This document shows positions 5,598 to 6,475 of a stretch of 8,684 nucleotides of DNA, piece after piece. The notes below the pieces were generated by a model. The model saw nothing but the letters and a program-made list of their open reading frames with translations. It was not told where the DNA came from and searched no databases. How positions within the stretch are numbered: the stretch's first letter is position 1; every line of letters starts with the position of its first letter. A program made the position numbers and the translations under genes. The stretch is from a virus (Duplodnaviria; Heunggongvirae; Uroviricota; Caudoviricetes). The DNA is taken from the IMG/VR virus record IMGVR_UViG_2778261453_000015, positions 1 through 8,684 of that record, one strand, 5' to 3'.

Positions 5598-6475
5598 TCA
5601 GACTGCAAGATCCAAGGGAAGATCAGAAATATCCTTTAATCTTTTACCATTAACCATCACGGAAAGCATGTCAGCTGCATCGCTGAGCCCCAGTATTTCA
5701 ACCGCTGATATAAGCTCATAAAGCGCAAAATGATACACGCAATCTATGTCACCAGTACCAAGAGCAATGGACGCCAGACGACTTGGAGTAGGCTCAGCAG
5801 TAACAACCATTACATGAGGCAGATTTCCCTTACGGTTGCGAATAAGGTTTAATGCCTCAGAACGAGCATTCTGGGCCCGGTCGCTTCTTATTGTCCATTT
5901 GCAGGAAATACTTGCGTGTAATATCGGTTTCCCACCATTCGAACTCCTGAGAGCTGACATGCGGGTAACAGAGTCATCCACCAGTAATTCAGGACTGTTG
6001 ATAACTTGATCGCATTCAGGTTCTCTTTCAACAACAATATCTGGTGAAATCGTATAATCACTCCCTAGTGCAGCAGCCAGCTGAGGGTTACTTTTTGCAG
6101 CACTATCCAATGCTATAAGATGGGCATATTGTTCATATTTAGCTATCTCTAATCTGTTTCTCCCAGAAACCTGATGTACATTCCATTTTCCAGGACGTAA
6201 GTGGCTGAGTTTAAAAAAGGTTTTTTTATAAACTCTGCGCAGATACTCTCGAACTGATTACCAGATGTTTGCCCTGCAACACGTTCACCAATCGTTTCAG
6301 CCTGCAAGAAGCGAGCAATTTCTCTTGCTATAGCTTTACTGTTTTTGTTACTGCTATCTGCATTACTAACAACTCCGGCAGTATTAATTGTGAGCGTATT
6401 CAGTAACAATTGGGCATGAAACTCCTTTCTGGCTTCAGCAAAACCAACTATGCTGTCAACCAAATCTCCATTCAT
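5598..6475 (-). pseudogene. Type II restriction endonuclease gene (NgoMIV/Cfr10I-like PD..SxK..E enzyme) split by a frameshift in an A7-CC-T6 homopolymer tract; about 292 aa if repaired
   Basis: N-terminal fragment 6475..6149 (ATG with AGGA Shine-Dalgarno, 108 aa). C-terminal fragment 6257..5598 is open in another frame but has no ATG and no Shine-Dalgarno (the track start at 6110 is TTG). The frames overlap across 6149-6257, and the tract at 6213-6227 is an obvious slip site. The downstream frame carries SPD ...47 residues... SCK ...14 residues... E, the spacing I recall for NgoMIV D140/K187/E201. Confidence 0.55.

What the first reader, a model, noticed from the sequence alone, without database searches (positions are those of the whole stretch)
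5598..6475. Restriction endonuclease gene inactivated (or switched) by a single-base slip in an A7-CC-T6 tract, beside an intact C5-MTase
Two adjacent minus-strand ORFs (6475..6149 and 6257..5598) overlap in different frames. The downstream frame is open for about 50 codons upstream of its first possible start, has no ATG and no Shine-Dalgarno. Restoring one base in the coding-strand tract AAAAAAACCTTTTTT (plus-strand 6213-6227) fuses them into one protein of about 292 aa. That product has a PD ...47 aa... SCK ...14 aa... E arrangement, matching the catalytic spacing I recall for NgoMIV (D140, K187, E201; 286 aa) and the Cfr10I/Bse634I CCGG-family fold. The outcome is either a decayed RM system leaving an orphan MTase, a homopolymer phase-variable REase, or a sequencing error at a homopolymer.
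Basis: partly seen in the sequence, partly recalled or inferred. Interest (0 to 1): 0.8.

Follow-up and report, generated by a model that had tools for sequence, protein, structure and literature searches.

The report
Frameshifted NgoMIV-type restriction enzyme gene
A prophage-borne restriction enzyme gene in E. coli has recently been knocked out by loss of one A from an eight-A run while its partner methylase stays intact, which is an ordinary way for restriction-modification systems to decay.

Summary
The two overlapping minus-strand ORFs (6475..6149 and 6257..5598) are one NgoMIV-family type II restriction endonuclease gene, split by a 1-base deletion in the coding-strand tract A7-CC-T6 (plus strand 6213-6227).

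- **Identity of the gene.** The repaired 292-aa product matches Pfam NgoMIV_restric end to end (E 4e-127). It is 65% identical to NgoMIV (PDB 1FIU), with the catalytic D/K/E and the RSDR motif in place.
- **Origin of the tract.** The ancestral form is ATA-GAA-AAA-ACC (E84), seen in all 60 complete E. coli carriers. A G>A change (E84K) made an A8 run, and the window has A7.
- **Recency.** An intact A8 twin (GCA_012247705.1) differs from the window by only this indel and one SNP over 6.2 kb. The exact repaired protein exists in E. coli O145:H25.
- **Not a sequencing error.** A7 occurs in several independent assemblies and on three haplotype backgrounds.
- **Other null alleles in the family.** These are T6>T5, Q69*, and truncations.
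- **The methylase.** The C5-methyltransferase is intact wherever I checked it (16 loci, including every A7 locus).

This is recent loss of the nuclease first, at a mutational hotspot, leaving an orphan methylase. True phase variation or recoding is possible but unsupported. Interest is low to moderate.

The parts
6489..7607 (-). Intact C5 cytosine DNA methyltransferase (372 aa), first gene of the M-R operon
   Evidence: PF00145 at 1e-54 and TIGR00675 dcm. The protein is identical to the one encoded next to the intact endonuclease in L011 and L014. It is 372 aa and uninterrupted in all 16 loci checked, including every A7 locus.
6476..6488 (-). 13-nt M-R spacer holding the endonuclease Shine-Dalgarno sequence (GAAGGAAA)
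   Evidence: Read directly from the sequence.
6149..6475 (-). Endonuclease 5' fragment ORF (108 aa): native residues 1-85, then 23 out-of-frame residues and a stop. Equals WP_249820452.1.
   Evidence: It lacks D146/K193/E207.
6213..6227 (-). Coding-strand tract A7(6227..6221)-CC-T6(6218..6213). This is the frameshift site. Intact alleles have A8, AGA6 or AAGA5 here.
   Evidence: The tract lies inside a 15-nt imperfect inverted repeat, 6204-6238.
5598..6257 (-). Endonuclease 3' part in the -1 frame (residues 86-292). It contains catalytic D146 (6041..6039), K193 (5900..5898), E207 (5858..5856) and the RSDR motif.
   Evidence: It has no ATG or SD of its own.
5492..5519 (-). Intrinsic terminator after the endonuclease gene (AACCCGCTTCGGCGGGTT followed by a T-run)
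7544..7724 (-). hok/sok-type leader element (Rfam sok RF01794) immediately upstream of the methylase start and overlapping it. Probably the promoter-proximal leader of the cassette.
   Evidence: 67.9 bits against a gathering score of 59. Its role in M-R expression is inferred only.

Best explanation
**What it is.** The locus is a two-gene type II restriction-modification cassette, with the C5-methylase first and an NgoMIV-type endonuclease second. It is carried as a moron in the nin region of a lambdoid E. coli prophage. By homology it most probably targets GCCGGC.

**History of the tract.**
- In the ancestral gene, codons 83-86 read ATA GAA AAA ACC.
- A G>A transition (E84K) fused the flanking A and the A6 into an uninterrupted A8 run, next to CC-T6.
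- In the window's lineage one A was then lost by replication slippage (A8>A7).

**Consequences.**
- Translation from the normal start ends after 85 native and 23 missense residues.
- The catalytic half (D146, K193, E207, RSDR) sits in the -1 frame with no start signal of its own, so no active endonuclease is made. At most a trace could arise through spontaneous -1 slippage on A_AAA_AAA.
- The methylase is untouched and keeps modifying the genome. The system has therefore become R-minus M-plus, an orphan methylase.
- This is the only order of loss that avoids post-segregational self-restriction.

**Shown:** the homology, the position and nature of the indel, its recency, its recurrence, and the intact methylase.

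**Inferred:** the slippage mechanism, GCCGGC specificity, loss of activity, and continued methylation.
For: - **Family.** Pfam NgoMIV_restric at 4e-127 for the repaired product. 65% identity to NgoMIV 1FIU, with E70, D140, S185, K187, E201, R191-S-D-R194, D34 and R227 all conserved.
- **Intact homologs.** They are single 292-aa genes annotated as NgoMIV family next to the same methylase. All 60 complete E. coli carriers have the AGA6/T6 form. Outgroups at 83-85% identity read GAA-AAA or GAA-AAG, which makes E84/AGA6 ancestral.
- **Intact A8 alleles.** L011, L014 and L038; Salmonella P0122-P0124 (about 100 contigs); E. coli P0155, P0160 and P0168.
- **Recency.** Haplotype H1 (window) is identical to intact H4 except for tract length. 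Window and L011 differ by 1 SNP and this indel over 6195 bp.
- **Recurrence.** A7 is present in independent assemblies and on three backgrounds. H1, H2/H3 and H7 differ pairwise at 13-19 sites, and each is closest to a different intact allele.
- **Past selection on the gene.** 31 of 38 polymorphic sites are third codon positions of the restored frame. The gene was therefore under purifying selection until shortly before each loss.
- **Private changes on null alleles.** T86I in L007, H101Y in L054 and P>S in P0130 are nonsynonymous.
- **Other independent nulls in the family.** T6>T5 (P0152/P0153), Q69* (L077), truncation after residue 118 (P0142/P0154) and a replaced 5' end (P0169).
- **Methylase.** Intact in all loci checked.
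- **Published support.** Runs of seven A are noted as prone to indel mutation and transcriptional slippage in E. coli (PMC4066793).
Against: - No read-level data were available, so I cannot show that the isolate is homogeneous for A7.
- Activity of the intact alleles and the GCCGGC specificity are inferred from 65% identity to NgoMIV, not measured.
- The A_AAA_AAA heptamer is in exactly the frame that a -1 ribosomal slip would need to restore the protein. The allele may therefore be leaky rather than null.
- Recurrence of the same frameshift on several backgrounds could also reflect selection for a switch.
Confidence: 0.85

Rival explanations
1. The A8 run is a contingency-type, reversible ON/OFF switch (phase variation) for the endonuclease. 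A7 is the OFF phase, not a dead gene.
For: - ON (A8) and OFF (A7) forms occur on an otherwise identical haplotype in near-identical prophages.
- A7 arose on at least 2-3 backgrounds, and a T5 frameshift arose in the adjacent T6 run.
- None of 60 complete genomes with the interrupted AGA6 tract has a tract frameshift.
- Homopolymer switches in RM genes are well documented in Helicobacter pylori (PMC3936762).
Against: - Eight A's is shorter than the runs that usually give phase-variation rates. The H. pylori paper itself points to runs longer than 8 bp.
- The run is derived, and the commonest and ancestral alleles are interrupted.
- No A9 product is in the 15-billion-protein collection.
- No reversion is demonstrable.
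- Null alleles also arise by non-reversible routes such as Q69* and truncations.
- Private nonsynonymous changes sit on A7 alleles.
- A crude estimate of one slip against one SNP in 6.2 kb suggests a hotspot, not a fast switch.
Confidence: 0.09
2. The frameshift is compensated at expression level. A -1 ribosomal slip on A_AAA_AAA, or transcriptional slippage on the A-run, yields a functional full-length enzyme (..FIKKTFFKL..), so the allele is an attenuated endonuclease and not a null.
For: - The heptamer A_AAA_AAA sits in exactly the required frame (ATA AAA AAA C). A -1 slip regenerates the protein of the intact A8 allele (P0155).
- A_AA.A_AA.A shifts at more than 0.1% without stimulators in E. 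coli and is used by IS elements (PMC4066793).
- Sites differing between A7 haplotypes are all third positions of the restored frame.
Against: - The third-position pattern is fully explained by independent recent origins from intact alleles.
- There is no downstream stimulatory structure (116-nt fold, z = -0.59), and the flanking sequence is the same as in intact alleles.
- The expected unstimulated efficiency is a fraction of a percent.
- Homologs are not conserved as split genes.
- Nonsynonymous private changes occur on A7 alleles.
Confidence: 0.04
3. Sequencing or assembly error at a homopolymer: the real genome has A8 and an intact gene.
For: - The difference is a single base in a homopolymer.
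- An otherwise identical A8 allele exists.
Against: - The same A7 is in the submitted assembly, in a second NCBI assembly (GCA_046054415.1) and in an independent Logan assembly of SRR3977270.
- A7 alleles of other haplotypes recur in dozens of runs: contigs shared by 8 and 13 samples, and P0151 on 18 contigs.
Confidence: 0.02

Closest known systems
NgoMIV (Neisseria gonorrhoeae; PDB 1FIU/4ABT), recognises GCCGGC
   Same: - 65% identity over 282 residues and a full-length PF09015 match.
- Catalytic D140/K187/E201 (with E70 and S185), the RSDR motif and D34/R227 are conserved at D146/K193/E207 and the equivalent positions.
- It is paired with a C5-methylase.
   Different: - The gene here is interrupted by a 1-base deletion.
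- It sits in a lambdoid prophage of E. coli.
- Specificity, tetramer formation and activity are untested.
Intact prophage alleles: WP_001012717.1 (E. coli O157:H7 and others, AGA6/E84) and P0155/EFA4265802.1 (E. coli O145:H25, A8/K84); Salmonella enterica P0122-P0124
   Same: - Same cassette, same flanks, and a methylase that is identical or more than 97% identical.
- P0155 is exactly the window's repaired product. L011 differs by 1 SNP and the indel in 6.2 kb.
   Different: The window has A7 in place of A8 or AGA6, so it encodes a 108-aa stub instead of 292 aa.
Homopolymer-controlled RM genes of Helicobacter pylori and other contingency loci
   Same: A length change of a homopolymer inside an RM gene decides whether the protein is made (PMC3936762).
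   Different: - The tract is short (8), derived, and not conserved.
- Reversibility and population heterogeneity are not shown.
- The host is a mismatch-repair-proficient enterobacterium.
Programmed -1 frameshift sites on A_AAA_AAG/A (dnaX, IS1/IS3 transposases)
   Same: A perfect X_XXY_YYZ heptamer sits in the frame needed to join the two ORFs (PMC4066793).
   Different: - There is no stimulator.
- The split arrangement is not conserved.
- The site was created accidentally by a deletion.

Membership tests
NgoMIV family type II restriction endonuclease (Pfam PF09015) | Full-length match to the family profile above the curated cutoff | tested here: met
   The repaired product scores 423.5 bits against a cutoff of 23.2, covering profile positions 1-275 of 275. 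Both fragments carry PF09015 hits on record.
NgoMIV family type II restriction endonuclease (Pfam PF09015) | Catalytic D...(S)xK...E at the NgoMIV positions, plus the R-S-D-R CCGG-recognition motif | tested here: met
   D146, S191, K193, E207 and R197-S-D-R200 align to NgoMIV D140, S185, K187, E201 and R191-R194.
NgoMIV family type II restriction endonuclease (Pfam PF09015) | Uninterrupted reading frame giving an active enzyme | tested here: not met
   A 1-base deletion in the A-run gives a 108-aa stub, and the catalytic part is out of frame. By descent it is a family member, but as a pseudogene.
NgoMIV family type II restriction endonuclease (Pfam PF09015) | Cleavage at G^CCGGC, tetramer acting on two sites | not testable with these tools
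   Inferred only from 65% identity. The window has 0 GCCGGC sites against 2.25 +/- 1.45 expected, which is not informative.
Type II RM operon / orphan methylase after loss of the nuclease | Adjacent, co-oriented, intact cognate-type methylase | tested here: met
   PF00145 and TIGR00675 match, 372 aa, stop 13 nt before the endonuclease ATG. The protein is identical to the methylase of intact twins.
Phase-variable (contingency) locus | ON and OFF repeat lengths among very close relatives | tested here: met
   H1 (A7) and H4 (A8) are identical elsewhere.
Phase-variable (contingency) locus | Repeat tract long enough for high-rate slippage, and maintained in the family | tested here: not met
   The run is A8 at most. 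The ancestral and commonest alleles are interrupted (AGA6), and distant homologs have no run longer than A6.
Phase-variable (contingency) locus | Reversible switching or mixed tract lengths within one culture | not testable with these tools
   No reads were available. No A9 product is in the protein collection.
Programmed -1 ribosomal frameshifting | Slippery X_XXY_YYZ heptamer in the correct frame | tested here: met
   In ATA AAA AAA CCT, the heptamer A_AAA_AAA allows a -1 slip that reads ACC TTT TTT.
Programmed -1 ribosomal frameshifting | Stimulatory element, and conservation of the two-ORF arrangement in homologs | tested here: not met
   The downstream fold has z = -0.59. Homologs are single ORFs.

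The most novel reading that the evidence does not exclude
The A8-CC-T6 quasi-palindrome acts as a low-rate but selectable ON/OFF (or ON/leaky) switch for a prophage-borne type II endonuclease in Enterobacteriaceae. Repeated A8>A7 and T6>T5 slips would turn restriction off while methylation continues. The A7 form would stay slightly leaky through -1 slippage on A_AAA_AAA and could revert. This would be a contingency-like RM locus in a mismatch-repair-proficient enteric host.
Probability: 0.1. Interest if true: 0.5.

Novelty: new member of a known kind. Interest (0 to 1): 0.25.

Why it matters
As it stands, this is a well-resolved example of a known process. An RM system loses its nuclease first and leaves an orphan methylase, and here every step can be followed at single-base resolution: E84K creates a homopolymer, the homopolymer slips, and independent nulls recur.

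It matters for annotation, because the two fragments are currently named as separate "NgoMIV family" proteins, for example WP_249820452.1. It also matters for predicting the restriction barrier and the m5C methylome of STEC-type E. coli lysogens.

It would be more interesting only if the tract proved to switch reversibly, or if the A7 allele proved leaky.

Tried and rejected
1. **Ongoing selection via recoding.** The first seven A7 loci differed only at third codon positions of the restored frame, which suggested continued selection and so recoding. I rejected this once intact twins turned up for each background. The divergence predates independent, recent frameshifts.
2. **PRF stimulator.** Folding 116 nt from the tract gave z = -0.59.
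3. **GCCGGC site avoidance in the window.** 0 sites observed against 2.25 +/- 1.45 expected, which is not significant.
4. **GTDB species representatives.** An exact-pattern scan found nothing. The metagenome scan found 6 loci, all AGA6, one of which carries Q69*.
5. **Salmonella and E. coli cluster members.** Only their proteins were available.
6. **A9 (+1) products.** Exact look-ups found none.
7. **T5 or A7 alleles among complete RefSeq E. coli genomes.** None in 60 carriers.
8. **Literature.** A search for the assembly and run accessions and for an E. coli GCCGGC prophage RM system gave nothing specific.
9. **NCBIfam.** It has no model for the endonuclease.

Full report
**Observation**

The window is the whole 8,684-bp contig NOCO01000073.1 of assembly GCA_002549675.1. 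It comes from E. coli: the 108-aa fragment is WP_249820452.1. The contig is a piece of a lambdoid prophage nin/late-regulation region. Its genes are DUF551, a C5-methylase, the split endonuclease, DUF968/NinG-like, RusA, Q, an N6/N4 methylase and a ParE/HTH pair.

On the minus strand the methylase (7607..6489) stops 13 nt before an ATG at 6475, which is preceded by GAAGGAAA. That ORF runs 108 codons to 6149. The -1 frame is open from 6257 to 5598, with no ATG and no SD for 49 codons before its first TTG at 6110. The coding-strand tract AAAAAAACCTTTTTT lies at plus-strand 6227..6213. Adding one A or one T gives a single 292-codon ORF.

**What the gene is**

- The repaired product matches Pfam NgoMIV_restric over the entire profile (E 4e-127).
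- It matches NgoMIV itself (PDB 1FIU/4ABT) at E 1.8e-118, with 65% identity over 282 residues.
- NgoMIV E70, D140, S185, K187 and E201, the R191-S-D-R194 motif, D34 and R227 are all conserved.
- The upstream gene is a complete C5-methylase (PF00145 at 1e-54; TIGR00675).
- An intrinsic terminator follows the endonuclease at 5519..5502.
- The unit is therefore a compact M-then-R type II cassette. GCCGGC specificity is inferred from the homology, not tested.

**Comparison with relatives**

Sixty complete E. coli genomes (O157:H7, O111, O103 and others) carry the same cassette at about 96.5% nucleotide identity. In them the endonuclease is a single 292-aa gene annotated "NgoMIV family type II restriction endonuclease" (WP_001012717.1). 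In these genomes the tract reads ATA GAA AAA ACC TTT TTT.

The wider collections show three intact forms of the tract:

| Form | Residue 84 | Where seen |
|---|---|---|
| AGA6 | E84 | 29 fetched loci plus the 60 complete genomes |
| A8 | K84 | L011, L014, L038; Salmonella P0122-P0124 on about 100 contigs; E. coli P0155, P0160, P0168 |
| AAGA5 | R84 | L037 |

Homologs at 83-85% identity read GAA-AAA or GAA-AAG, and no distant homolog has a run longer than A6. So E84/AGA6 is ancestral. A G>A transition created the A8 run, and the window's A7 is A8 minus one A.

**Recency and reality of the frameshift**

The window's endonuclease haplotype (H1) is identical at every other site to the intact A8 haplotype H4 (L011 from GCA_012247705.1 and L014 from SRR6787402). 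Over 6,195 bp of shared prophage, the window and L011 differ by one SNP (window 3358) and this indel. The exact repaired protein exists in E. coli O145:H25 (P0155, 7 contigs).

A7 on this haplotype is seen in three assemblies: GCA_002549675.1, GCA_046054415.1 and an independent Logan assembly of SRR3977270. Sequencing error is therefore very unlikely.

**Recurrence**

A7 also occurs on two other backgrounds:

- H2/H3 (L005-L007, L009, L010; contigs shared by 8 and 13 samples) is 13-14 differences from H1. It is closest to intact H5 and to the A10/K84 proteins P0160 and P0168.
- H7 (L054; its product P0151 is on 18 contigs) is 18-19 differences from H1 and H2 and only 4 from the AGA6 haplotype H0.

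The nearest flanking markers (225, 282, 288, 301, 315) differ among the three A7 haplotypes. Spread of one A7 by recombination would need conversion patches of a few tens of bases, so independent deletions are the simpler reading. H7 may be a direct deletion of the G.

Further independent null alleles exist in the family:

- T6>T5 in the adjacent run on the AGA6 background (P0152/P0153, 18 contigs). The predicted translation matches exactly.
- Q69* in metagenome locus L077.
- A truncation after residue 118 (P0142/P0154).
- A replaced 5' end (P0169).

The methylase is a full 372 aa in every locus examined.

**Selection**

Of 38 polymorphic sites among ten haplotypes, 31 are third codon positions of the restored frame, and 30 are synonymous. 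The endonuclease is therefore normally under purifying selection, and the null alleles are young tips. Private changes on null alleles are mostly nonsynonymous: T86I in L007, H101Y in L054, and P>S in P0130. The numbers are small, but they fit relaxed constraint after inactivation.

An early impression was that the third-position pattern among A7 alleles meant continued selection, and hence recoding. The independent origins explain that pattern instead.

**Mechanism**

The best-supported account has four steps:

1. E84K created an A8 homopolymer beside CC-T6, inside an imperfect inverted repeat (6204-6238).
2. Replication slippage removed one A.
3. Translation now terminates after 85 native residues, and the catalytic half has no initiation signal.
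4. The methylase continues to protect the chromosome, so the loss is tolerated. Losing the nuclease first is the only viable order of RM decay (established knowledge on post-segregational killing by type II systems).

Runs of seven A are noted as depleted in E. coli genes, possibly because of high indel rates and transcriptional slippage (PMC4066793).

**Rivals**

- **Phase variation.** ON and OFF forms exist on one haplotype and the frameshift recurs, which favours it. Against it, the run is short and derived, no A9 product is on record, irreversible nulls also arise, and the interrupted allele dominates.
- **Recoding.** A_AAA_AAA sits in exactly the frame a -1 slip needs, and it shifts at more than 0.1% unstimulated in E. 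coli (PMC4066793). But there is no stimulator (z = -0.59) and the split arrangement is not conserved. At most this gives trace leakiness.
- **Sequencing error.** Excluded as far as assemblies can show.

**Novelty and interest**

The family, the architecture and the mode of inactivation are all known. Homopolymer frameshifts in RM genes are classic in Helicobacter (PMC3936762), and RefSeq already labels the fragments as NgoMIV family. This is a new, nicely traceable member of a known kind, and interest is low to moderate. The most novel reading that remains open is a contingency-like, leaky switch for a prophage endonuclease in enteric bacteria. It needs read-level and experimental tests.

Noticed in passing
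window 7544-7724 (-): An Rfam sok (RF01794, hok/sok family) match of 67.9 bits spans the region just upstream of the methylase ATG (7607) and its first ~64 nt. Related lambdoid phages carry mokW/hokW/rem at this position. The RM cassette may have replaced a hok toxin gene and may use its promoter and leader. A short uORF (ATGGGGGCGGATGAAAGAATTAAATAA, MGADERIK*) with a GAGG Shine-Dalgarno sequence overlaps the methylase start.
   Followed up: partly
window ~3546-3547; ORFs 3534..3713 and 2893..3537 (-): The antiterminator Q gene is also split, into 59 aa and 214 aa. Compared with the 273-aa homolog in E. coli strain 9000, one G is missing (ATGGGC > ATGGC). The intact-endonuclease twin L011 shares this deletion, so it is older than the endonuclease frameshift. 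It suggests the prophage is already decaying.
   Followed up: partly
window 7771-7792: A perfect 22-bp palindrome, CGATATGGGAATTCCCATATCG, lies upstream of the sok-like element. Its function is unknown; it could be an operator or a recombination site.
   Followed up: no
window ~8537 vs L012 position 148: The near-identical contig of GCA_046054415.1 (8,685 bp) has one extra T (GAAATTTGCAG against GAAATTGCAG). This lengthens the DUF551 ORF from 156 to 193 aa. L011 agrees with the window.
   Followed up: partly
window 451-1224 (-): A ParE/RelE-type toxin (886..1224) and an HTH antitoxin-like gene (451..825) form a likely toxin-antitoxin pair. They lie beside a second DNA methylase of the N6/N4 family (1253..2317).
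   Followed up: no
L077 (metagenome OBRH01000748.1), endonuclease codon 69: An independent nonsense mutation (CAG>TAG, Q69*) occurs in an AGA6-type allele of the same endonuclease.
   Followed up: partly
window 6204-6238: The A7-CC-T6 tract is the centre of a 15-nt, 87% complementary inverted repeat (GCTGAGTTTAAAAAA / TTTTATAAACTCTGC). Hairpin formation might contribute to the deletion hotspot, since both the A-run and the T-run have lost a base in different lineages.
   Followed up: no
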